Positions 3,000 to 63,301 of a DNA stretch of 64,000 nt are shown in pieces. Under the pieces are notes generated by a model. It was not told the DNA's origin and searched no databases. It was given only the letters and a program-made list of their open reading frames with translations. Source of the DNA: Eledone cirrhosa (lineage: Eukaryota); the NCBI GenBank assembly GCA_964016885.1, contig OZ024746.1, forward strand, positions 6,262,001 through 6,326,000, written 5' to 3'. Made by a program: the position numbers and the translations under genes. Numbering within the stretch: position 1 is the stretch's first letter; each line of letters begins with the position of its first letter.

Positions 3000-3581
3000 C
3001 ACTTTAATACATGAATACACTTACATCTAACTATACACATCAAACATATATATATATTTACTTATTTATATACATTTTCACATATATATACATACTTATG
3101 GACGTTTTTAGACACATTCATTATCGCATATTTGCACCTATTCTCATCAGCATATCTTTCCATTATTAGTGTGGTAATTTAAGGTTATTAATATATGTTG
3201 AGAAGAGATTGTTTTTATATTTTTCTAACTAGATTAAGGTTTATATAGTTGGGGGATGTCCCTCTTTTATGTAATATTCGGCTTGTAGTGGGAAAAAAGG
3301 GTTTTAGTTCTGTGACGGCAGAATAATGTTCGTTCAATTCTGTTATTCAGCAGTTTCTTCTTGTGTGTGATTATGCTATCTTAGATAGCAGCTGTTTTAG
3401 GTTATGTAACTGTTATAGAAACACGTGTCAATAAATTCCTTTCAACTAAACTGTATCCATTCAAATCTTTCTATTTTTCTCCGGATTACTTTTGGAACTA
3501 CAACTGGAACCGTCGAGCAAACTCTACGTGAGCTGATAATCTACTGTGTGTAATATTTATATTACAACACAACGGAAAATA

Positions 3582-4084: not shown

Positions 4085-4680
4085 ATGAGAGTTTTTTATA
4101 TAAAAAAATGAGATGCCCTGCACGAATGAAAGTATAAGGAAAAGAAATCGAAAATGCAACTAGACTCTTTTTAAGAATATTTATTTATTTCCTTTACCGG
4201 TTTCACAGTTCTTATGCTTTTGAAAAGTGGAATTGAGATGGAGGGTTTGTGGTTTGTCTCGCATCTTGTTCGTATTCGAAAGTTCTTTCTGTTCTATGTG
4301 GAAAGAGTGGCTCGAATTGCTGGGGATTTTTTAAAGAAATAATTTTGGTTGGTTGTTGACTGTCACGTCAATACGTACTATAAATTTTGCGCTAGTTCGC
4401 GTTCCAAAATTCTTATTGTATTTGCCTTAAAAAATGTGCCTCAAATTGTTTTTTTTTTTTTTGTAAGTGTAATTTGGTTGGTTGATGACTGTCACATGAA
4501 TAAGTACATCAAATCTCGCACCAGTTCGTGTTTGCCATTTTCACAGTCACGTGATTGGCCATAGGTGCCAGAAAAGGATGGTTTGTCATAGAAAATTCTG
4601 TGCCAAACAAAATATAATGTTCAAGAAATGTGCGAGGGTGGGGGTGTAGCAAATTGGTTTATCGTTTCGATAATAGAAAT
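4085..4680 (-). mobile_element. PLE-like 3'-end fragment (family with U3-A8 hammerhead)
   Basis: Homologous to 9997-10180, 21700-21817, 40790-41065 and 62920-63301. Confidence 0.65.
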
Positions 4681-7697: not shown

Positions 7698-9808
7698 TCA
7701 GGTTATCAATAATGTAGTGATAATATATCGTTACGTTAGAGATGAACAGCGTACGTGCAGGTTTGCTCAACGAGTATAAATTATATTCCGGAGAAATGTA
7801 GAAAGGATGAATATAAAATGAAAGTGCTTTTGTTAAAAAAGGAATTTATTAGGTATTGACATATGTTTCTGTAACAGACCGAATACCTATGTATCGCTGC
7901 TTGCGTAATCATATAATGTTAGCAAGTATTCGATAGCAAATGTATAATCAGTTGTCACTTCTTCAGAGATTTTGGATAAACTGGATAAAATCAGAAAAAT
8001 TGAAGTATTTATATTAGTAAAAGAGGAAGGAACAGAGGGGATAGAATATGACAGATGGTAAAATAATTTACTGCTAAACAAGTATATAATGGGTTTTTAA
8101 TGAGAATACCATGAGTAAATCTAAATAAGAAATTTTGGGAGTGCCAATTTTAATCTCTACTTGACCAACTGGACAGTGGACAGGGCTGGTCATTTGGTGC
8201 AGTAGTATTAACTATAAAGTGTCAATTGGGGAAGGGGGAGATTTCGATTGCTACTAAATAACATCAATGCTAGTATCCAGCTGGTATATGCACTAGGGAA
8301 TTGAATCAAGAAATCAGAAATCTCATTTTATCTATAGCAGTTTGTATTAAAAGGTAAATAATAGAAGAGTTGATAGAATTAAGACTAATAAAGAATGTTA
8401 ATATCTATTTTGACAATCAAACGGGGATAGAGACAGGCGTTCAATCCTGGTAGTATTTATAATATGAAAATGTAGATTTTAAGCGATGGTTACAGTATAA
8501 CGATCGCTCTATTCTGTTATTTAATAAAATGTTTTTGGATTTCATAATACAAAATAATTCTACATTACATAATTTACAAATTTCCTGTCCATTGGATTAT
8601 GGGGGGGCAGTCGCTATTATATCCCATTTTAGGTGAAATTGTTGGTTATTTTCACGCAGCTGCCAAGCCTTGTCTGCGAGTGTTGTTACATAACGCTGGT
8701 TTTCATGTTTTATCGAATAACGATGTCTATAAAGGCGTGATTTGAAGGAGGTGGCTGTAGATCCCACATAGTACCACTTCTGTCTATCCGATTCGATAGT
8801 ACATTTGTATACGATGTTGCGTTCAAGACACTGATTGTTCAACGGACACATTCCTGGTTGGACACAGTTGCAATTACAATTTTGCGTTGTTGTATTAGCA
8901 TGGATGGGTTGATGAGGTTGCTTATGTAGGACAGGATGTTGTTTGTTGTTTTGTGATGTTATAGCTAATGTTTTACGTGTATTGTTATGTGTTGGAAGGC
9001 GTTTATACAACCGTTTTGCGTTAAGCTTTTTTATATGTTGTTCAATATTAGGGGCGGTTCAATATGAAAGTCGAATAGTGTTAGGGTTTAAGATTTTATT
9101 ATATTTATGTGATGTTGGAAAGTGTTTTCTAACTAATCGAAAGAATTTTGAGGGTAGATTGGTTTTAATAGATTTGTTATAGACCGGGTTGTACCAGATA
9201 TACTCCTTACATCGCCTTCTGTTTGGTGGTGTGCGACTATTATTGTGTCTATTGCGGTAGTGTATGTATGGTGGTGATTCTGTGCTATTTCTACTCCTAT
9301 GCGATTTATTTTGGGTGTTTTGGTGATCATTGACTATATACTCTATACTATCTAGGTGACCGGCTTTCCTAAGTGCATCATCATAATACTCGGCATGTTC
9401 TTTGAAGGTTTGTTGGTTGGACGATAGGCGGGAGATTCTAAGAGAAACATATCTAGGGATGGATTTAATTATAGAGAGTGGATGGTTAGAACTCGTATTT
9501 ACATATTTAAGGTTCTCATTTAAAAAATAAGACTTTAGCAGTAAATTATTTTACCATCTGTCATATTCTATCCCCTCTGTTCCTTCCTCTTTTACTAATA
9601 TAAATACTTCAATTTTTCTGATTTTATCCAGTTTATCCAAAATCTCTGAAGAAGTGACAACTGATTATACATTTGCTATCGAATACTTGCTAACATTATA
9701 TGATTACGCAAGCAGCGATACATAGGTATTCGGTCTGTTACAGAAACATATGTCAATACCTAATAAATTCCTTTTTTAACAAAAGCACTTTCATTTTATA
9801 TTCATCCT

Positions 9809-9996: not shown

Positions 9997-10002
<6 letters not shown>

Positions 10003-10172
10003 GTGAGGTTTTTTTTACAAAATGAAAAATAACCGAGGTGTCCTACACGAGTGAAAGTATAAAGAAAAAGAGATGAAATCGAAAATGCAACTGAAGTCTT
10101 ATTTTTTTTTTAAATATATATATTTTTTTTAAAAATAAGACTTCAGTTGCATTTTCGATTTCATCTCTTTTT

Positions 10173-10180
<8 letters not shown>
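9997..10180. mobile_element. Small fold-back PLE-like 3'-end insertion
   Basis: aaagaaaaagagatgaaatcgaaaatgcaactgaagtcttatt and its reverse complement; tail on the left arm only; (TA)n flanks. Confidence 0.8.
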
Positions 10181-21682: not shown

Positions 21683-21817
21683 TATTATATATATATATAT
21701 AAAGAAAAAAAGATGAAATCGAAAATGCAACTAGAGTCTTATTTAAAAAAAATATATATATACCTTTACCGGTTTCGCAGTTCTTCTGCTCTTTTCAAAA
21801 GTAGAGTTGAGATGGAG

Positions 21818-22213
21818 AGGCGCGGTGATTGCAGGATTGCTTCAGGACCCAATGATCTCTGGTAAGTTCTGGGTCATCGCTTGCTACATTGGATGTCGAA
21901 AGATAATCATCCCCAGGCCGGCCAGAGGTCAATCCGCAGTCCTCGCGACCCGTCTCTGAAAAACGATTTAATCTAGTAACGCTGTTGAGCAGTAGGACCA
22001 GGCTGCTGAGCGCAGTGAGTGAATGCATTGCAACTGCCGTGTGGGTTGTACATATATGGATGACCTGACGGTCAGAGACGGGTCGCAAGGACTGCGGATT
22101 GACCTCTGGCCGGCCTGGGGATGATTATCTTTCGACATCCAATGTAGCAAGCGATGACCCAGAACTTACCAGAGATCATTGGGTCCTGAAGCAATCCTGC
22201 AATCACCGCGCCT
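21818..22213. repeat. GC-rich ~142-bp inverted repeat with ~112-bp spacer
   Basis: 21818-21959 and 22072-22213 are reverse complements with about one mismatch. Confidence 0.92.
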
Positions 22214-34037: not shown

Positions 34038-34502
34038 TGTTATACTTGGGGAGGGTCATATTGTTGTAATATTACCAGAAATAATAACACACACACTCAC
34101 TGTTTGGTTGGTTTTCACTTCTGCATCTTTTATATCTCCATCGTTAATTCATTCGGCAATCAATGTTCATCATTAACTGACCAACGGTGAAAAATACAGA
34201 TATAAATACATATATATAGTCTAACAAAGTTCTTTCGTTGCACATCTGCAACATCATCAGTGGTACTATTATGTTTACACTGATGATGTTGCAGATGTGC
34301 AACGAAAGGATTTTGTTAGACTATATATAATTATATGTGTAATTTTGACTGTTGGTCAGTCAGTGATAAACACTGATTGCCGAATGAATTAACGATGGAG
34401 ATATAAAAGATACAGAAGTGAAAACCAACCAAACAGTGAGTGTGTTGTGTTATTATTTCTGGCAATATTATTACAACAATATGACCCTCCCCAAGTATAA
34501 CA

Positions 34503-36659: not shown

Positions 36660-38273
36660 ATCACGTTTCTTGATATGGAGTAGATTATAATTATTTTTCT
36701 TTTCTCAGATTATAATCTGAGAAAAGAAAAAAACACATTTTTGTATAATTTATCAGTTCATATAATTAAATCAACAGAGTATATATTTATTTTATTTCAC
36801 AAGCTTATCAAAAGCAAACAAGTAAAAACAAATAACACTTATAAAACAACTTATACACGTCAGAAATGACTGGATTTCCTGGATTTGCGGTTGTAGTCCA
36901 GGTCGCACTAGCCCCAGATATAGTCCCCCATCATTTTTTCATTGTAGTGGCCTGGTACCTCCGCTCTATCTCTTTCACATCTTGGTGGAATCGTTCGCCT
37001 TGTTCTTCTGAGTAGGCGCCCATATTGTCCTTGAATTTTTCCAGGTGAGCGTCCAGCATATGGAGTTTAAGCGACATCCTGCATCCCATGGCGCCAAAAG
37101 CCTTTATCAGATCCTGCACCATTTGCTGGTAGTTTTCAGCTCTGTAGTTGCCCAGGAAGCCCTTAACAACTGCTTTGAAACAGTTCCATACTGTTCTCTC
37201 AATTCTATTGTGCTTATTGGAGAACTCGGTAGACTCAAACACCTTCTTTATCTGAGGTGCAACAAAAATTCCACTTTTGATTTTGGCCTCAGATAACTTG
37301 GGGAAGAACTCAAGAAGGTACTTAAAAGCGGCTGATTCTTGGTTGAGAGCCTTCACAAACTGTTTCATCAACCCCAACTTAATGTGCAGTGGCGGCATGA
37401 GCACAATTCTGGGATCAACCAGTGGCTCCCACATGACGTTCCGGGTCCCAACTAGAAATTCTGTTTGCTGCTCTCAGTTTTTTCTTTTGTAGTGGTCAGA
37501 GGTGGCTCTGCTGTCCCAAAGGCAGAGGAAGCATTGGAATTTGATAAAGCCTCCTTGGAGTCCAAGCAGGAAAGCCACCATCTTGAAGTCTCCAATGATT
37601 TCCCAATTGTACTGGTTGTATTGCAGAGCTTCCAATAGGACTTTCACACTGTAGTAATATTCCTTCAGGCAGACTGAATGAGCTAGGGGCAGTGTCGGGA
37701 ACTTATTTCCATTGTGGAGGAAGACAGCCTTCAAACTTGTGGTGGAGCTGTCTATAAATAGCCGCCACTCCTTGGGGACAAACGGCACCCCAATAACGTC
37801 AAACAGTCCAGGCACGTCATGGCAGAAGCAGAGGCCATCCTTAAGAGTGTAAAAGCCTGCACTTCCTCCTTGACCAAGTTCCACTGCTTCATACTGGAGA
37901 CGAATGCTTAAAACACAACTTACCCTTTATTCAGGGTGCGAAAATCCAGTATCAATAAATCTCTTTAATCCACTTTTTAACAATTTTATACTTTATTGCA
38001 CTTTTATCATTTTCTTTAGGTATTACTCTTTATTTTATAATTTTAATTTAACCTTAAACATATATTAAAAAAATCATTTAACATAAGCAAATTAAACTTA
38101 CATACAACGTAAAATCCAGAATACAAATAATTCTAGTGAATAGCTTAGAATTTTTACAAACCCAAACTTTTAACTGTTTAATAGCACTTTTTTATTTATT
38201 TGGGACCTAAGCAACACAAAATAAGTGATTACAAGCCAGGAACAGAGAAAAAAAAATGTTTTGTTACACGGTG
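36660..38273 (-). mobile_element. Chapaev3-type (CMC) DNA transposon, internally deleted
   Basis: Transposase remnant; minus-strand 5' terminus CACcgtgtaacaaaa with adjacent TTA (TWA target); other TIR not found. Confidence 0.75.
36860..37870 (-). pseudogene. Chapaev3-like transposase, frameshifted
   Basis: EWRLFIDSS..SLKAV.LHNGN, LLGLQGG..K..CFLCLWDSRA, PPLHIKLGLMKQFVKAL and SEEQGERFHQD motifs split over ORFs 37474-37884 and 36931-37434. Confidence 0.85.
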
Positions 38274-40783: not shown

Positions 40784-41065
40784 ATTTATATGCTGACAAA
40801 TTGTTCACAGTGAAAAATAGTTTAATTAGGAATAAGTGAGAATTAGTAATAGTATTGGTTAGTATTCAGTTTTGGTTTTAAGTTTTACCGGTTGCGCATT
40901 TCTAATGCTTTTCAAAAATAATTTTGAGATAGAGCGCCCGTGATGTTTGCTCTGATCTGATTAGTTTTGGGAATTCTACCTGTTTTATATGAAAAAAGTG
41001 GTTCCAGATGTATTAAAATAAGTTTTGCGCCAATTCGTGTTGCAAAAATTCTTGTGGTCAAAACA

Positions 41066-43165
<2,100 letters not shown>

Positions 43166-43250: not shown

Positions 43251-46200
43251 TCAGGATTTGGGCACCATGGCCCATTCGAGAAGAGAATTACTGTTTGCGG
43301 AGACATATCCGGGTGTGGGTGGTTTGTCCGGGATTACTTGGAGGAATTTGTCCAAAGACTTCTTGAATTTTGTGTGGTCAGTTTCTGTTTTGACGTGTCC
43401 TGGTGTGATGTTGAAGAGAGCAGGGCCGATTGAGGTGAAATAATTGTGCCGTATTGTTGTTATGAGTTGGGATTTAGATTTTTGAATGGGACGGATAGCA
43501 CGGGGCCCAAGCCTTGGGTGTATCTTGAAGGCGATGCCAACATCATTTGGGCAGTGATGATGGAACATTTTCCACATCATGCAGATAATATAACGCTCAC
43601 GGCGACGTTGGAGTGAGTAAAGTTTCAGGTTTTCGAATCGACCCCAGTAGTCAAGGTCTGACATGCCATCTATCTTTTTCGTGATTGCCCTTTGAGGAGC
43701 TTCAAGTTTCATGATACTTTGTTTCGTGTGGGGAGACCACAGTGGACAACAGTATTCAAGGTGTGGTCGGGCAAAGGTAGAGAAGAGAAGGATAATGGTG
43801 CGGGAATCTCTCGACTGGAAGGTTCTGAGGATCCAGGAACACATTCTGCGGGCCATGTCAACTTTGCTGCTTATATGCGTGGTCCAGCTTATGTTGCTGT
43901 CCACGGTTACTCCCAAGTCTCTGATGTTGTTAGATGCCACGAGAGTTTCCCCGGAGGGAAGGGAGTACGGGAGTTTCAGAGCATCCTCTTTTCCAAAGTG
44001 GATCAGTTCGAATTTGTCTTCGTTCAGTAACATGTTGTTCTTTTCTGCCCATTGGGTAACAGCCAGTAGGTCTGACTGAAGGCTTATCCGGTCATCCACG
44101 CCATTGATGACCTTTTGGAGCTTGGAATCATCAGCGAAAATTTTAATGTTGCTGTGTTTGATGATGTCAGTGATGTCATTAATATAGATGATGAAGAGAA
44201 GTGGCCCAACACAGTGCCTTGTGGGACCCCACTACTGACTTTGGCTGGGCTTGATTTGACTCCCTCAACTACAACATGTTGGGTTCTGTTTGACAGGAAG
44301 CTCTTGATCCACTGCAGCAGCTTTCCAGTGACACCAATATTGGACAGCTTTCTCAGTAGAATGTTATGATCAACCCTGTCAAAGGCCTTGCTGAAATCAA
44401 GGTAGATAACATCAGTGTTGGAACCCTCTCCCAAGGCTCTCAAAATGTCATCAAAGTGATGCAGTAGCTGCGTCAGGCAATCCCTTCCATTACGGAATCC
44501 ATGCTGGTTGGAGTTCAGCATATTGTTACTCTCAAGGAAGTGGGTCATTCGCGATCTCACCACTCTCTCAAATACCTTAATGATATGAGAGGTGAGTGAG
44601 ATTGGACGGTAATTCACGGCAAGGGATTTGTTTCCCTTTTTGAAAACTGGGACAACAGACTGGGATAGAAGGTTTTCTGGCACATATCCAGCATCCAGTG
44701 AGTTCCGCCACAGATTGGCAAGAGGAGATGCAAGTTGGTGTTGACACGCCTTCAAGACACAAGCAGGGAACCTATCGGGACCTACTGCTGAATTATGCTT
44801 GATTTCCTTTATTGCCGCCAAGACATCAGGGGCGCCAAACGTTATGTCCGATAAGGTGTAATGGGGAGTAACATCGCCGATACAGCCCAGATCGGCCATA
44901 TCAGGATTGCTGAAAACAGAGCAGTATTGTTTCTGCAGTATCTCACCCATGGTTTTAGCATTGTCTTGAAGAGTGCCATTTTCATCAATTAGAGGGCCAA
45001 CAGTAGAGCCAGTGATTTTGTGTTTTTTGCAAATGAAAAGAACACTTTGGGATTGAGTTTGATCTTCTCAATGGCCCAGGCCTCTTCAGCTCTTCTCTGA
45101 TTGTTGATGAGGGACATTATGTTGTTTTGGAGGTTATGTTTTTTAATCTCTAGTGATGAAATGGCAGTCAAGTTGATGTGTTGCTGCTGACAGTATTTCA
45201 GCTTGTTGATTTTTTTGTTCGTTCTCTTAATTTTTCTGATGAGCGTTTTTCTATTTCTAGGGATTCTGCCCTTAGATTTGTTTATAGTTCTTAATGGGGT
45301 GTGTTTAGCACATATGTTTGTAACAGTGTCCACAAATGTCTGCCAGGACTTTTTGATGTTAGTGGGTGTATGAGTGTGCGTGAAGGACCAGTCGACATGT
45401 GCAAGATCATGACTGATCGCTTCCCAGTTTGCATTGTGGAAATCCATAGCGTCAAACGGATGGACAGGAGAGATGACATTGGGTTTGTATATTGGACGGT
45501 GGAATCTCAGATCACAGAGAACCATGTCATGATCAGAGAGTAGAGTTTTCTCCACTGCAATATTGTGGATATTGTCAGTGTGATTGCTGAAAATTAAGTC
45601 TAGGACGTTTTTGTGGCACCTCGTTGGTTCGAGCACCAGTTGGGATAGGAAGAAATCATCCATGAAGTCAAGAAGCGATTCCACAGCTTCCCTGTCAGAG
45701 GTTGAGGCAGAAGAACCTGGTGGCAGGCTGTTTGTGGACCAGTCAACTCCGGGGAGGTTGAAGTCCCCCATCATTAAGATGTTGTCAGGGTGACACTCTT
45801 GGATGAAACACTTTATGCTGTTGAGGCATTCCTTGAAGCATGGTACAGGCGTTTGGGGTGGCCTATAGAGCCCAACTACTAATAGGTTGCTGGTTTGACT
45901 GAATACAGTGACTGCTTCACAGTATCCATTAGTGAATATGTTCATAGCCTCTGTTGAGAAAGAATTATGGACATAAATGGCAGTTCCGCCCTTTCTTCTG
46001 CCAGCGCGATCAGCACGGATGGCTTTGAAATTTTTCACTTTCACCTCGGCTTCCAACTGGAGGTTACTGAGATGGGTTTCAGTGAGGACGAAGAAAGGGA
46101 TGTGGTTTGGATGGACATCAATCCAGTCCTCCAGGAATTTGATCTTCCATTTTTGAGTATTGGTGGAAGGGCTGATGCCTTGGGCGTTAAGCAAAAATGT

Positions 46201-46269
46201 AGAGGCGAGAGTGGATGGTTTTAATTGTTTTGGTGTGTTGTTAATTTGTTTGTTTGTTAATGGCAGCAA
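43251..46269 (-). pseudogene. LINE ORF2 (APE endonuclease + reverse transcriptase) with two 1-bp frameshifts
   Basis: LNAQG, LTETHL, GLYRPP, MGDFNLP, LDLIFSN, SDH (APE); NYRPISLTS, QHGFR, YLDFSKAFDRV, SGVPQGTVLG, IFADD (RT); breaks near 45025 and 44205. Confidence 0.92.
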
Positions 46270-47016
46270 TGGGAGTTTGTGCAGTGGGGTGATAGTGGAG
46301 GGTGGTGCTGGGTGATAGCTCGAATGTTTTTTTCCAGTTCTTTTGCCAGATTCATTATGGCTAAAAAAGAGGAAGAAGTTTCCTGTTTAGAAGACTGTTG
46401 GTGACTGTGGTAGTGGTTATTTTTATGTAGGTTATGGTTTTTGTTTTTGCTTTTATTTTTAATTTTATTTTCATTTGTCCGACGGGTCCCCGGGAGATGG
46501 GTAAAGGGACAATCCCGGTCTAAACACAATCTGTCTCGCAGGGAAAAGCGGCAGATTTGTGGATTCCTTGTTTGAGTTATTGGTGGTTGTGTTGGTGTTA
46601 AATTAGAGTATGTATTATGGTGGTGGCTGTTTGTGGGGATAGATCGTTTTGTCCTAGGTAAATGGGTGAATTTGCAGCCACTATCCGCACATATTCTATA
46701 GCGTAGAGAGTAGCGGCAAATGATGGGGTTTCGAGTGGGTGGGTATGTGGGTGTGTGTGTTGTGAGAGGTGTAGATGATGGTTTGGGTAGGATTTGACGA
46801 CCTTTGTGGACTGTGGGAGGGAGAGTTCTTGTTCTGGTATTAGAAGGTAAATTCCTTGACATAGCAGTAGAGAAAAATGTTGTAGTAGTAGTAGTAGGCA
46901 GAGATATTGGCAGTGTTGATGATTGGACTGCTGGGCCAGAGAAAGGATGTGGCGTTTCATGCTGTGAGACAGAGGCTACTGGGGGGGTCAATAGTTTCAT
47001 TTAGTAGATCGGCCAT
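46257..47016 (-). CDS. LINE ORF1-like protein, S/T/P-rich, with two CCCH-type zinc-finger repeats
   Basis: [19 protein letters not shown] and [19 protein letters not shown] in ORF 46257-47000, directly upstream of ORF2; start uncertain. Confidence 0.65.
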
Positions 47017-48996: not shown

Positions 48997-54235
<5,239 letters not shown>

Positions 54236-54238
54236 TGT

Positions 54239-55578
54239 ATGGAGGATACAAAGGAGTATAATAGTTTCAAGCAGCGTCTTTACATGCATACCCATTCTTT
54301 TCGTTACCCTCTAAGAAGGAATATGACGTCACTTTCAGCTTATATCTGGAGTCTAAAAGACAACCACACCCAATATAAGTTACACTGGGAGATCCTAGCT
54401 AGGGCTAGATCGTATAACGGAAATAAAAGACCATGTGACCTCTGCGCCGCTGAGGCCCTGGAAATACTCTACGCCACAGACCACATCTTAAACAAAAAAT
54501 CTGAGGCAATTTCGGCTTGTAAACATAAATTGCACAAAACTTTCCTGTATTACAGCCCCACGTTATACCCTAACGGATAGCACGATCTATACGTGGATAT
54601 GTTACGTCTTGATGTGGGAGCTAAGTATATGTTTTGTTTATTCCTTTACTTATTTGCATAGGTAAGTATATATTACCCGTATGTTTTGTGAAGGTAAGTA
54701 TACCTTCTCGTACGTATATTTGACTGTTATGGCGTATAATTTTGACATATTCTGGTATTTAGGGTTTGGCTATGTGTATACGGGAGTTTTGCGTCTGCGT
54801 GAGTATGCAGGTTCGTACGTATGGTGGGTGTGTGTATATGTGTACTTCTTGTTTTAGTTGACTTACGTCTCCGAACATTCGTGTATTTATATGTAGGTAT
54901 GTGTGTGCGCTTGTTATATAGGTATTTATTTACTTATATACGTTTATATAATTATTTATTTATGTGTACACAAGCATACACACACACACATATTTATATG
55001 TGCGTGGTTTTGTATACCTTGATAAAGTTTTGCGTATGCTTGTGTATGTACGTATCTGTTTGCGTGTATGTATTTATTTGTTTCTATTACTTCTGTATTG
55101 TATTTATTTACTTTGTTCTTAACTCTGTAGCGGAGATTCATTTGGTCTCCTAGTTAGAATTTTAGTCTACGACTTCTGCTATACCATTTACGTGGTTTTG
55201 TCTTTGCGTGCTATTGTTCTCCACGCTCCACATATGACTTATTATCTTCGTTTTTTCGTTCATTGCCAGAGAACGTCTCTATGCACCACCTAAGAGAACA
55301 TTAGTCTACGACCTCCTTTATACCATAAACGTGGTTCTGTCTTTGCGCGTAATTGTTTTTCACCGCTCCTATTAATGACGTATTATTCGTTTTTTCCCGT
55401 TCTTTGCCAGCGAACGTTTCCACGAACCAAAGTATCGTCTTCCTGTCTTCCTCCGGTTGCAACGTTTTTTGAAATATCCAGTTCTGCGTTTACAGATTGA
55501 CTTTGTTAGTTTCAGAAGATCCCGTTAAGGGTGAAAGTAGCGATTCTTTGCTTAAACTTTAATCTGTTATTTTAATAA
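54239..55578 (+). mobile_element. Nematis-type PLE 3' fragment (EN C-terminus + 3' UTR)
   Basis: FKQRLYMHTHSFR..TSLSAYIWSLK..WEIL..CDLCAAEALEIL..LNKKSEAISACKH; A4-variant HHR motif at 55508-55558. Confidence 0.88.
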
Positions 55579-59055: not shown

Positions 59056-60860
59056 GCTCGACTGTGGGATGACAGCTTTTGATTTCAGAGTCGGGCCAGA
59101 TCGATACAGATCGAACCGTGAGCTGATCGATAGCGAAACGCGCGTCACCAATCAATAAACGTAATGAAGGTTAAACAAATCATCCTTGTATTATATTCCT
59201 AAGTGATCCCTATTTCATTTGTAAAAAAAAAACATCTTCAGAATAATTACAGGGTTTCTACGTTTTTTGCTCATCACTATGAAAGTATAATAATAGATTG
59301 GAACTTGAGTATACTTCTACTTCAGCAAACATATATTGTCTCTCGTCATTGTTCTCTTCAAGAATGTGTCACGATTTTCAATACTTCGTTTTCAAACAAT
59401 GATGTTGTCATTAGCGCACACCTGATATTATTTTGTCAGCTTCGTAAACTCTGATATTCTCATAATGCTACCACTTGCCTCTTTTCCTCTATACTTTCTT
59501 TTTATGTATGTTGCTTTGCTGCTGTTTTCATTCTAATGATTCTTCTTTACCTATAATTTATATATAGGAAGATAAAGGTTACTAGTAGGTATAATGTTGA
59601 TATCAGGTAATAATGTATTATCGGTTAAAAGAAAATTGTCTTTTGTATTCTGCGATACGGATATGAGTACATTAATAAAACGAAGTATTATTGCAATATT
59701 CGCTAAATATTACAATATTCAGAAAGACGAATCGCAATAATGGCGGAATATCTTCCATTTAGAAACAAATAAAATGAAAGTATTTATCATAATTTCTATG
59801 AAACGAATATAAACCTATAAAACATTCTAGAATGTTTATTCTCGATCCTTACGCACTCAGTGTGCAACATAAACAAATATAGAATATAATGAAAGCTTTA
59901 CTTTGGGAAAATAAATATGAAATCAAATTCTTTGATTTTTATCATTCTTCCCTCCAACATTTTACTTCTAAAATTGTCATGAGTGATTTTAGTTCAAACT
60001 ATTACAACAAATGAACGTCAATGTGTGACACAGGCACACAAGATAATATAAATGATGTGGCAGCATAAAGTACATCTTAACACGATAATTCTATTAACAG
60101 AGAATGAAATTATATTTATCAATTGTGTATTCCTGCTGATTGTATGATACACGACGAATGACATTTTTACGTTTCACCATACGTAATTAAAAATGGAAAA
60201 CTTTTAATAAAGCTTTCATAGTTTTTTATTCTAATTATGTTTTTATCACGAAATGTCTACTGCATTAGAGAATCTTTGAGGGAACGTGCTGAATTCCTTA
60301 TTTATTTTCATCCCTTAACAGTTTATTTCTCTTTTTCTATATTGCCTTTGGCCATTGAAGGGGTGTGACATAATTCTCTACTTCTAGTTTCTATTAAGGT
60401 TTAGTTATTGTTAATACATTTACTGTTGCTTCCTTCTTTTCTCATTTTTATAACAAATGATAAAAAATTGAAGATTTTATTTCAACTTCTCAGAGTTTGA
60501 AATATATATAGACTTATGAATTTAGTTCCTATTTTAGGCTTTTTTTGCCGTACTTTCCAGTTTACGTAACTTCTTTTAGATTTCAATTAAAGATTTCGTG
60601 TTAATTCAGTTTCAATTTCAGTTCCACTTATGATATTTCTACCCGAATCTATTTCGTCTCAAGCACACTTATAGAAACTTGAAATAGTTTCTATTTATAT
60701 TATCAACACATATGCGACTCCCATTACGTATATTTTATTCAATCTTTATGAATGTAAGATCTTTAAACTTTAATATTTTTGTCTTGTTTCCCTTCTCTTT
60801 TGATGTGTTGATGTACTCACTTGGCTTCCTTCCGTCTGTTCTGCGTTTTGATTCTATTTT

Positions 60861-60940
<80 letters not shown>

Positions 60941-61006
60941 GCATACATATATACATACACATATATATACACATATATCTATCTCCCTCTCTCTCTCTAT
61001 ACATAT

Positions 61007-61049
<43 letters not shown>

Positions 61050-61051
61050 TA

Positions 61052-62088
61052 TAACTGTAACTATCGACTTCCCTTCCAAACACCCTAACAATAGACTACC
61101 TGTATTAGACACAGAACTCTGGATTAACACTATAGACGAGAGAGCCCAAATTCTCCACTCACACTATGCTAAACCCATGGCCTCCAAATACCTGATACTC
61201 AAAAACTCAGCAATGTCCAGTAGTGCTAAGTTTAATATTCTGATCGCAGATTTGGTACGAGTGATGAAGAATGTGTCCAGCATGTGCGACCCAACAGAAA
61301 TGGAAAGACACATCCAACACTTCATCAACCGCATGCAGTTCTCTGGCTACAACCAAAGAGACAGAGTCAGAGTATACGAAGGAGCCATGGAAAATTATAA
61401 GACCCTCATAGAACTGGACATGAAAGGAATTTGCCCATTATACAGGAGCAAATCATGGAATAGCTTAGATAGGGCTAGACATAAGATAGGGAAGGCCACA
61501 TCATGGTACGACAACCAGAGATATCAGAGTGTCATGTTTGTGGACGCCACCCCTGAAGGGAAATTAGCTAACCAGTGTAGAAAGGCCCTGAGAAAGACCC
61601 ACTTAAAAATAAAGGTGGTAGAAAAGCCAGGAACCACCATAAAATCCCTGATCAGCAAAACCTACCCGTTTAAGAAAACCCACTGTACCAATAGGAAATG
61701 TATCATATGTAAGGTGAACCCCCGGATAAACTGTAAAACTAGAAACGTAGTCTATAACATAAGATGTACAGAGGGTACTTGCAGAAACATGACAACAACA
61801 TACATAGGCGAAACAGCTCGTAGCATAGGTGAAAGGATAGACCAACACTGGGGGGAACTAAAAGGACGAAAAAACGGGTCAGTACTATACGAACATGCTA
61901 GACAACAACATGACGGTAACATAGACAACATAGAAATTAGAATAATATCTAAACATAGGAATGACCCAGCAGATAGGCAAATCAGAGAGGCCAGTGAAAT
62001 AGAAATTAGAAGACCAAAGCTAAACAGAAAGAATGAGTGGAACAACAACAACACCCAAACAAACAACACTGACCTAAGAGAAGTATAA
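61052..62088 (+). CDS. PLE RT thumb + GIY-YIG endonuclease (partial, ~345 aa)
   Basis: [18 protein letters not shown]...[44 protein letters not shown]. Confidence 0.9.
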
Positions 62089-62855: not shown

Positions 62856-62909
<54 letters not shown>

Positions 62910-62919
62910 TATATATATA

Positions 62920-63301
62920 CTCCAGTTGCATTTTTGATTTCATCTGTTTTCCTTATATATATATATATATATATGAGAAAAAAATGAAATCAAAAATGCA
63001 ACTGGAATCTTTTTTTTTTAAATATATATATTTATTTAGTTCCTTTACCGGTTTCGCAGTTCTCCTGCTTTGAGTTGAGATGGAGGGTCTGATGTGAGAA
63101 AAACCACAGTCCCTCCATCTCAACTCTACTTTTGAAAAGCAGAAGAACTGCGAAACCGGTAAAGGAACCAAATAAATATATATATTTAAAAAAAAAAAAG
63201 ACTCCAGTTACGTTTTCGAATTCATCTTTTTTCCTTATACTTTAACTCGTGTAGGACACCTTCGGTTATTTTTCATTTTGTAAAATAATCCTCACTTTCT
63301 A
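62920..63301. mobile_element. Fold-back PLE-like 3' end with U3-A8 hammerhead
   Basis: Arms ~62975-63088 and ~63110-63237; tail 63238-63301 on the right arm only. Confidence 0.85.
63129..63164 (+). ncRNA. Minimal hammerhead motif with U3-A8 core covariation
   Basis: ctt-TTGAAAA-gcag/aagaa/ctgc-GAAAC-cg-GTA-aag. Confidence 0.72.

What the first reader, a model, noticed from the sequence alone, without database searches (positions are those of the whole stretch)
63129..63164. Family with U3-A8 hammerhead core and covarying stems
Seen: the core reads UUGAAAA instead of CUGANGA, i.e. C3U plus G8A, which preserves the 3-8 tertiary base pair (established HHR structure). The diverged copy at 40883-40918(-) keeps UUGAAAA while stem II changes gcag/ctgc to gcat/atgc and stem I changes ctt/aag to ttt/aaa (its GAAA reads GCAA). 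Further copies lie at ~21764-21802(-) and ~4192-4230(-). Inference: selection for an active variant ribozyme that standard motif searches would miss.
Basis: partly seen in the sequence, partly recalled or inferred. Interest (0 to 1): 0.75.

Follow-up and report, generated by a model that had tools for sequence, protein, structure and literature searches.

The report
Penelope hammerheads with swapped core letters
This is the end piece of a very abundant Penelope-type jumping gene carrying a predicted self-cutting RNA whose U-A core pair is already in print; the new part is a sister family that spread to thousands of copies with a second, normally fixed core letter changed, and copies of both families start at the predicted cut site somewhat more often than expected, which likely reflects weak cutting.

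Summary
Observation confirmed. 63129-63164 is a minimal type I hammerhead fold (UUGAAAA core, palindromic stem III). It lies in the end repeat (pLTR) of a young Neptune-type Penelope retrotransposon (RT plus GIY-YIG). The pattern has 18,487 genomic matches (control 138); only 124 have C3. U3-A8 is published for Penelope hammerheads (PMC4209133), and this scan noted it before on other DNA. Covariation rests on two fixed changes between sister families, too few to prove selection, but the core holds across three lineages 50-60% identical in RT. New here: the GCAA of the 40883 copy is not decay. It is fixed in an autonomous sister family (A13C; 4,446 matches plus an estimated 6,400 in a second subfamily). 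Most short copies start about 73 bases upstream of the cut site, so most templates were likely uncut. Among copies broken near the site, the exact cut position is enriched about 2.3-fold in both families (16 and 17 of 100; about 7 expected). That is modest support for weak cutting, even with A13C. Cleavage is untested.

The parts
63129..63164 (+). Minimal type I hammerhead motif of family A (older A2 type): stem I 63129-31/63162-64, U3-A9 63132-38, stem II 63139-42/63148-51, GAAA 63152-55, palindromic stem III ACCGGT 63155-60, predicted cut between 63161 and 63162
63091..63301 (+). Main arm of a short two-armed Penelope insertion, from the common 5' start (-71 from the cut site) to the +140 end, followed by (TA)n; 91% identical to a young full-length copy
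62976..63091 (-). Inverted arm of the same insertion; a deletion of about 10 nt removes its UUGA core; it ends near the +79 class of 3' ends
62889..62959 (+). Extra fragment of the family A tail (+10 to +79)
40883..40918 (-). Hammerhead motif of sister family C (subfamily C1): UUGAAAA, GCAU/AUGC, GCAA (A13C), 3-bp A-U stem I
40790..41067 (-). pLTR piece of family C (-182 to +98), 94.6% identical to the 3' pLTR of locus L199
21698..21817 (-). Family A piece; motif at 21764-21801 with a 2-nt insertion after A9
4092..4414 (-). Older related piece (D type); motif at 4192-4227 with G5C, predicted dead
9997..10179 (.). Fold-back family A insertion that starts downstream of the hammerhead (+8 to +140 on minus, +11 to +79 on plus)

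Best explanation
The motif is a minimal type I hammerhead fold in the end repeat of a young, high-copy Penelope-like retrotransposon, and it likely cuts weakly, likely only when two RNA copies pair through the ACCGGU palindrome. Shown: full-length copies have two overlapping ORFs (about 400 aa; a 775-aa frame with RT, a CX4CXXC linker and GIY-YIG), with the motif about 1.05 kb after the stop and, in tandem copies, about 170 nt before ORF1. The window holds only short two-armed end pieces in (TA)n. Inferred: transcription starts about 73 nt upstream of the cut site, and reverse transcription starts internally at +79 and +140, which yields the short two-armed insertions. Most templates are uncut; a small share (order of 1-2% of arms) likely comes from RNA cut after A17. 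The U3-A8 pair is inherited from the ancestor of three lineages (A, B, C) and kept. Lineage C also fixed A13C and still spread, so efficient cutting is likely not needed for transposition.
For: Element link: of 30 loci fetched by the endonuclease query alone, 23 have the motif downstream on the same strand within the 1.5 kb held (counted by eye). Pfam GIY-YIG E 7e-7, above cutoff; RVT_1 E 2e-6, just under cutoff. Eight young copies are 99.3-99.7% identical over 2,325 nt. Core kept while RT is 50-62% identical between A, B and C; the free position 7 varies (A, U, C) while 3-8 stays U-A. A1 against C2: 30 of 38 identical over the motif, 25 of 56 just downstream. Cofolding pairs the palindrome between two copies, 5.9 to 10.3 kcal/mol better than two monomers. 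5' ends at -80 to -61: 63 of 113 arms in A, 26 of 83 in C. Start exactly at the cut site: 16 of the first 100 listed of 515 in A and 17 of the first 100 listed of 138 in C2, hand tallies, against 7.2% and 6.7% expected.
Against: No cleavage or RNA data. The monomer is not predicted to fold as a hammerhead; only stem II is in the centroid. Stem I is 3-4 bp in A, 3 A-U pairs in C and about 2 bp in B. In a full pairwise mutant scan of another hammerhead only the G-C swap rescued the 3-8 pair (PMC9901934). For Anolis PAc, ribozyme mutants did not affect insertion in vitro and no RNA-seq ends mapped to the cut site (PMC11167929). The excess at the cut site is small; with a twice higher null share it is not significant (P 0.15 and 0.14). 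A1 against B identity over the motif (24 of 38) is no higher than downstream (34 of 56).
Confidence: 0.7

Rival explanations
1. The fold no longer cuts in any of these lineages. It is kept as a binding or dimerisation signal for the element's protein, or as promoter sequence, and the excess of 5' ends at +1 comes from RT stalling or microhomology with TA-rich targets.
For: A13C fixed in thousands of young copies; weak stem I; most 5' ends lie at -73; +1 sits in TA|AA next to (TA)n targets; PAc inserts without cleavage; identity is also raised just upstream of the motif (29 of 40, A1 against C2).
Against: A and B keep every catalytic position across about 45% protein divergence while position 7 and loop II vary. 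The C2 edge is sharp (17 starts at +1, 1 at +2). A null built from 141 real junction flanks gives only about 7% at +1.
Confidence: 0.2
2. A and B cut, but family C is a dead-ribozyme lineage that hitchhiked A13C and spread anyway.
For: A13 is counted as invariant core in published search filters (PMC3088659); that A13 changes strongly lower activity is recalled from older mutagenesis, not read here. C has the weakest stem I of A and C. The cleaned C count is only 6 of 30 (P 0.013).
Against: C2 shows the same excess at +1 as A. C keeps U3-A8, G5, G12, the palindrome and a compensated stem II in both subfamilies.
Confidence: 0.4
3. One reading: an efficiently active ribozyme under strong selection as shown by stem covariation.
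For: 87.9% of cells paired; covariation score 0.187, 3 of 500 shuffles as high. The youngest A subfamily has a 4-bp rather than 3-bp stem I.
Against: Only two independent compensatory events, and related rows inflate the score. Most templates are likely uncut. Penelope minimal hammerheads cleave poorly in vitro (PMC4209133).
Confidence: 0.1

Closest known systems
U3-A8 minimal hammerheads of Schistosoma mansoni Cercyon Penelope-like elements (Cervera and de la Pena 2014, PMC4209133; parts 1-2 of 4 read, passages of supplement file 2; file 1 could not be searched)
   Same: Type I fold in pLTRs, U3-A8 pair (about 1,300 hits there; the S. mansoni(4) row has UUGAAAAA), G10.1-C11.1, palindromic stem III, mostly dispersed or opposite-strand copies, low expected activity.
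   Different: Stem II is 4 bp, no extra base after A9 in A and C, 2-nt palindromic insert in stem III; about ten times more copies; sister family with GCAA. I saw no A13 variant in the text read.
PAc, Poseidon element of Anolis (Frangieh et al. 2024, PMC11167929; passages and main text part 1 of 2 read)
   Same: Two internal RT start sites giving a tail (here 3' ends at +79 and +140 in A; about +123 and +165 in C), AT-rich targets, hammerhead at the pLTR-ORF junction.
   Different: PAc has C3-G8, one ORF and a motif overlapping the start codon; here two overlapping ORFs, a zinc-finger-like linker and the motif about 170 nt before ORF1.
Neptune/Nematis clade of C-terminal GIY-YIG Penelope-like elements (Craig et al. 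2021, PMC8557442; passages read)
   Same: CX2-5CXXC linker before GIY-YIG, (TA)n targets, tandem and inverted pLTR arrangements, hammerhead near the 3' end; the Fig. 1 legend mentions an ORF1 separated by a frameshift in some PLE types.
   Different: Clade placement was not tested against reference sequences.
Natural core variants of hammerheads (Perreault et al. 2011, PMC3088659; passages and part 3 of 8 read)
   Same: U3-A8 found in nature and cited as active in vitro; U10.1-U11.1 tolerated, as in part of family B.
   Different: A13 substitution is not among the variants in the passages read (an insertion U13a is); figures and supplements not seen.

Membership tests
Hammerhead ribozyme (type I, minimal) | Core N3-U4-G5-A6-N7-N8-A9 with paired 3-8, G12-A13-A14-A15.1, U16.1-H17 | tested here: met
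   Family A: U3-A8, GAAA, UA
Hammerhead ribozyme (type I, minimal) | A13 in family C | tested here: not met
   GCAA in 98 of the first 100 C1 matches and 77 of 79 C2 rows among the first 100
Hammerhead ribozyme (type I, minimal) | Three stems around the core | tested here: inconclusive
   Stem II folds; stem I short; stem III only between two copies
Hammerhead ribozyme (type I, minimal) | Self-cleavage after H17 | not testable with these tools
   Only an indirect, modest excess of 5' ends at the site
Hammerhead ribozyme (Rfam models) | Match to an Rfam hammerhead model | tested here: not met
   No hammerhead family among 37 hits at E up to 10 in 63060-63200
Penelope-like elements, C-terminal EN | RT followed by GIY-YIG endonuclease | tested here: met
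   PF01541 above cutoff; PF00078 27.8 bits against cutoff 29.6 on a partial protein; 775-aa frames
Penelope-like elements, C-terminal EN | pLTRs in partial tandems, inverted 5'-truncated arms, tail on one arm | tested here: met
   L104, L105, L113, L115, L248; two classes of 3' ends
Neptune/Nematis clade | CX2-5CXXC linker upstream of GIY-YIG | tested here: met
   CX4CXXC in P0001
Neptune/Nematis clade | RT phylogeny with reference elements | not tested
   The tree held only this genome's families
Non-LTR retrozymes | Short non-coding head-to-tail hammerhead units without own ORF | tested here: not met
   The motif belongs to coding elements; short copies are truncated arms

The most novel reading that the evidence does not exclude
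A natural hammerhead with both U3-A8 and A13C cuts in the animal, probably as a dimer helped by the element's own protein. The genome records this as copies that begin at the cut site. That would widen the hammerhead core consensus and give an in vivo readout for Penelope ribozymes, whose role is open.
Probability: 0.3. Interest if true: 0.68.

Novelty: new variant of a known kind. Interest (0 to 1): 0.4.

Why it matters
The role of hammerheads in Penelope-like elements is described as unresolved (PMC7761336, passages). This genome holds a natural experiment: three related, recently active lineages, one with a fixed change at a position treated as invariant. If C cuts, the core consensus and search descriptors need widening. 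If it does not, thousands of young copies show that a Penelope element spreads without a working ribozyme, as the PAc in vitro data suggest. Either answer needs only short RNAs and one genome-wide breakpoint map. The U3-A8 swap alone is known and matters little.

Tried and rejected
Rfam scans found no hammerhead among the hits shown (150 of 187 shown; all 37); the miRNA hits reflect microsatellites and the fold-back. A MITE or DNA-transposon reading of the 62969-63240 palindrome was dropped: the arms have unequal 3' ends and belong to a retroelement. The Penelope ORFs in the window at 48997-52890, 8456-9550 and 60688-62088 are not the parent: family A's ORF2 gave no hit in the window (one search found only pLTR pieces), and the 49-kb element has its own CUGAUGA motif. 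One search used a spacer one base short (14 matches, all GCAA) and was replaced. In alignment A1 stem II of families B, E and F is out of register, so pair counts used only the 9 A, C and D rows of A2. R-scape was not available. Papers not held, so not seen: Lunse et al. 2017 (PMC5785218), Przybilski and Hammann 2007, PMC3334697, PMC2271363; they may list A13 or U3-A8 data. The supplements of PMC9901934 were listed, not read. Searches for A13 variants returned no paper on a natural A13C hammerhead; one search found U3-A8 in PMC4209133 only.

Full report
Observation. The window lies at G000:C6:6262001-6326000 in a 3.0-Gb animal assembly. At 63129-63164(+) the sequence is ctt UUGAAAA gcag-aagaa-cugc GAAA ccgg UA aag: a type I hammerhead layout with U3-A8, a 4-bp stem II, a self-complementary ACCGGU in place of stem III and a 3-bp stem I. 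The predicted cut lies between 63161 and 63162. The one at 21764 has a 2-nt insertion after A9 and the one at 4192 has G5C. Rfam gives no hammerhead hit at the site (0 of 37 hits).

Family size and core. The pattern NTGANNA-N13-GAAACCGGT has 18,487 matches against 138 for the reversed control; most of the first 100 listed are this family. With C3 it has 124 matches, of which 5 of the first 100 listed have G8, two of them from an unrelated family. With U3-G8 it has 65. The family core is therefore U3-A8, and the rare exceptions look like single changes after insertion.

What carries it. Following long copies upstream led to a Penelope-like ORF: GIY-YIG above the Pfam cutoff, RT just below it on a partial protein, with a CX4CXXC linker. 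A search with the last 150 aa gave 21,894 first-look candidates, 150 scored. Of the 30 loci that came with it, 23 show the motif downstream on the same strand within the 1.5 kb held (counted by eye). Full copies have ORF1 (about 400 aa) overlapping a 775-aa RT-EN frame. The motif lies about 1.05 kb after the stop and, in tandem copies, about 170 nt before ORF1. Eight young copies are 99.3-99.7% identical over 2,325 nt; two older ones are about 96%. The window insertion is a two-armed end piece in (TA)n: main arm 63091-63301, inverted arm 62976-63091 with its core deleted.

Sister families. The 40883 copy belongs to family C. Its pattern has 4,446 matches (control 0), 98 of the first 100 with GCAA. 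A pattern with one more spacer base has 8,077 matches (control 9). Of its first 100, 79 are subfamily C2 (77 with GCAA), 20 are family B (UUGAUAA, UGCAU stem, GAAA) and 1 another type (counted by eye). That puts C2 near 6,400 and C near 10,000, an extrapolation. C and B have their own ORFs in the same layout. RT cores are 58-60% (C) and 50-62% (B) identical to A, and A, B and C separate with support 99/98 or better. C2 copies are 97.7-98.8% identical to each other; none of the 9 C2 loci examined showed an unbroken ORF2. So A13C was fixed before or during a large, fairly recent spread.

Selection and covariation. On 9 rows of A, C and D, 87.9% of cells pair and 2 of 11 pairs change on both sides; 376 of 500 shuffles reach that number. 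The better evidence is constancy: U3, U4, G5, A6, A8, A9, G12, A14, A15.1 and the palindrome hold across the lineages while position 7 and loop II vary. Identity over the motif exceeds the downstream flank for A1-C2 (30 of 38 against 25 of 56) and C2-B (29 of 38 against 29 of 56), but not for A1-B (24 of 38 against 34 of 56). Monomers fold only stem II reliably. Two copies pair through the palindrome, 5.9-10.3 kcal/mol better than two monomers.

Where copies begin. The lead came from two earlier notes of this scan; I tested it here. I sampled loci by a tail word, not by the hammerhead (70 loci per family, four of the C loci chosen from the hammerhead list). 5' ends pile up at -80 to -61 from the cut site in 63 of 113 arms of A and 26 of 83 arms of C, at a shared CAGAT word, likely the transcription start. 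Starts at 0 to +3 were 5 of 113 in A and 0 of 83 in C. 3' ends fall in two classes (A: +79 in 29 arms, the reference end +140 in 67; C: about +123 and +165), the tail signature explained by two internal RT starts in PAc. I then searched for copies broken within about 9 bases of the cut site: 515 in A and 138 in C2. By hand tally of the first 100 listed, 16 (A) and 17 (C2) start exactly at +1; in C2 only 1 starts at +2. A null with uniform breaks and 141 real junction flanks expects 7.2% and 6.7% (P 0.002 and 0.0003); these tallies include duplicates and internal deletions. I examined 51 matches per family in context. After dropping 21 (A) and 14 (C) with same-strand family DNA upstream and 3 and 6 duplicates, +1 holds 7 of 27 and 7 of 31. 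With one more duplicate removed by eye, C has 6 of 30 (P 0.0025 and 0.013). If the true null share were twice uniform, neither is significant. Scaled up, starts at +1 are of the order of 1-2% of arms. This is weak-to-moderate indirect support for cutting, equal in A and C2.

Mechanism. Shown: position in the pLTR, two-armed insertions, fixed start and end classes. Inferred: RNA begins near -73; RT starts internally and copies to the RNA's 5' end, mostly through an intact hammerhead; a minority of RNAs, likely dimerised or protein-bound, is cut after A17. Efficient cutting is likely not needed for spread.

What is known. U3-A8 was found in nature by Perreault et al. (PMC3088659) and in Penelope pLTRs of Schistosoma, about 1,300 hits, by Cervera and de la Pena (PMC4209133), who report low activity even as dimers. 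In a pairwise mutant scan of a type III hammerhead only the G-C swap rescued the pair (PMC9901934, passages), so U3-A8 activity depends on context. PAc's hammerhead needs protein and is dispensable for insertion in vitro (PMC11167929). I found no report of a natural A13C (and the passages above), but the most relevant paper, Lunse et al. 2017, was not held. This scan has noted U3-A8 Penelope hammerheads many times on other DNA; a search of its notes found no mention of A13C.

Verdict. The finding as posed is a new member of a known kind. The fixed A13C sister lineage with a possible genomic trace of cutting makes it a new variant, untested. Interest 0.4.

Noticed in passing
L105:5492-5579; L248:4207-4273(-); L262 and L263 at the start of ORF2: ORF1 and ORF2 overlap in the -1 frame; A and C share TTTTTTAGAC there and ORF2 of A, B and C reads FFR at that spot: a likely conserved -1 frameshift site. 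A frameshifted ORF1 is mentioned for some PLE types in the Fig. 1 legend of PMC8557442.
   Followed up: partly
window 48997-52890(-), motif at about 52912-52949(-): A different Penelope-like element (27% identical RT) with an ordinary CUGAUGA minimal hammerhead just upstream; a long microsatellite lies in the 5' part of the open frame.
   Followed up: partly
window 16210(-), 34260(-), 34280(+), 62362(+): Four copies of another hammerhead-like family with a C3-G8 core and a 6-bp stem II; the pair at 34260/34280 forms a fold-back.
   Followed up: no
window 8456-9550(-), 54191-54580(+), 60688-62088(+), 3270-3374(-): Further Penelope-like RT or GIY-YIG fragments from other families.
   Followed up: no
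window 43251-47000(-): Near-complete LINE with apurinic-type endonuclease and RT frames, by eye from the translation.
   Followed up: no
window 36931-37926(-): Transposase-like frames in pieces, by eye from the translation.
   Followed up: no
window 21845-22200: A long perfect-looking inverted repeat of an unrelated GC-richer element directly upstream of the 21764 copy.
   Followed up: no
G000:C1:348863669-348949713: A C3-A8 mismatched family A motif repeated at about 9.6-kb spacing, likely a local tandem duplication that inflates the C3 count.
   Followed up: no
L105, L115 against L061, L119: The youngest A subfamily has CCUU/AAGG (4-bp stem I), the older one ACUU/AAGG (3 bp).
   Followed up: partly
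L422, and four C2 rows: Some fold-backs are centred exactly on the ACCGGT palindrome.
   Followed up: no
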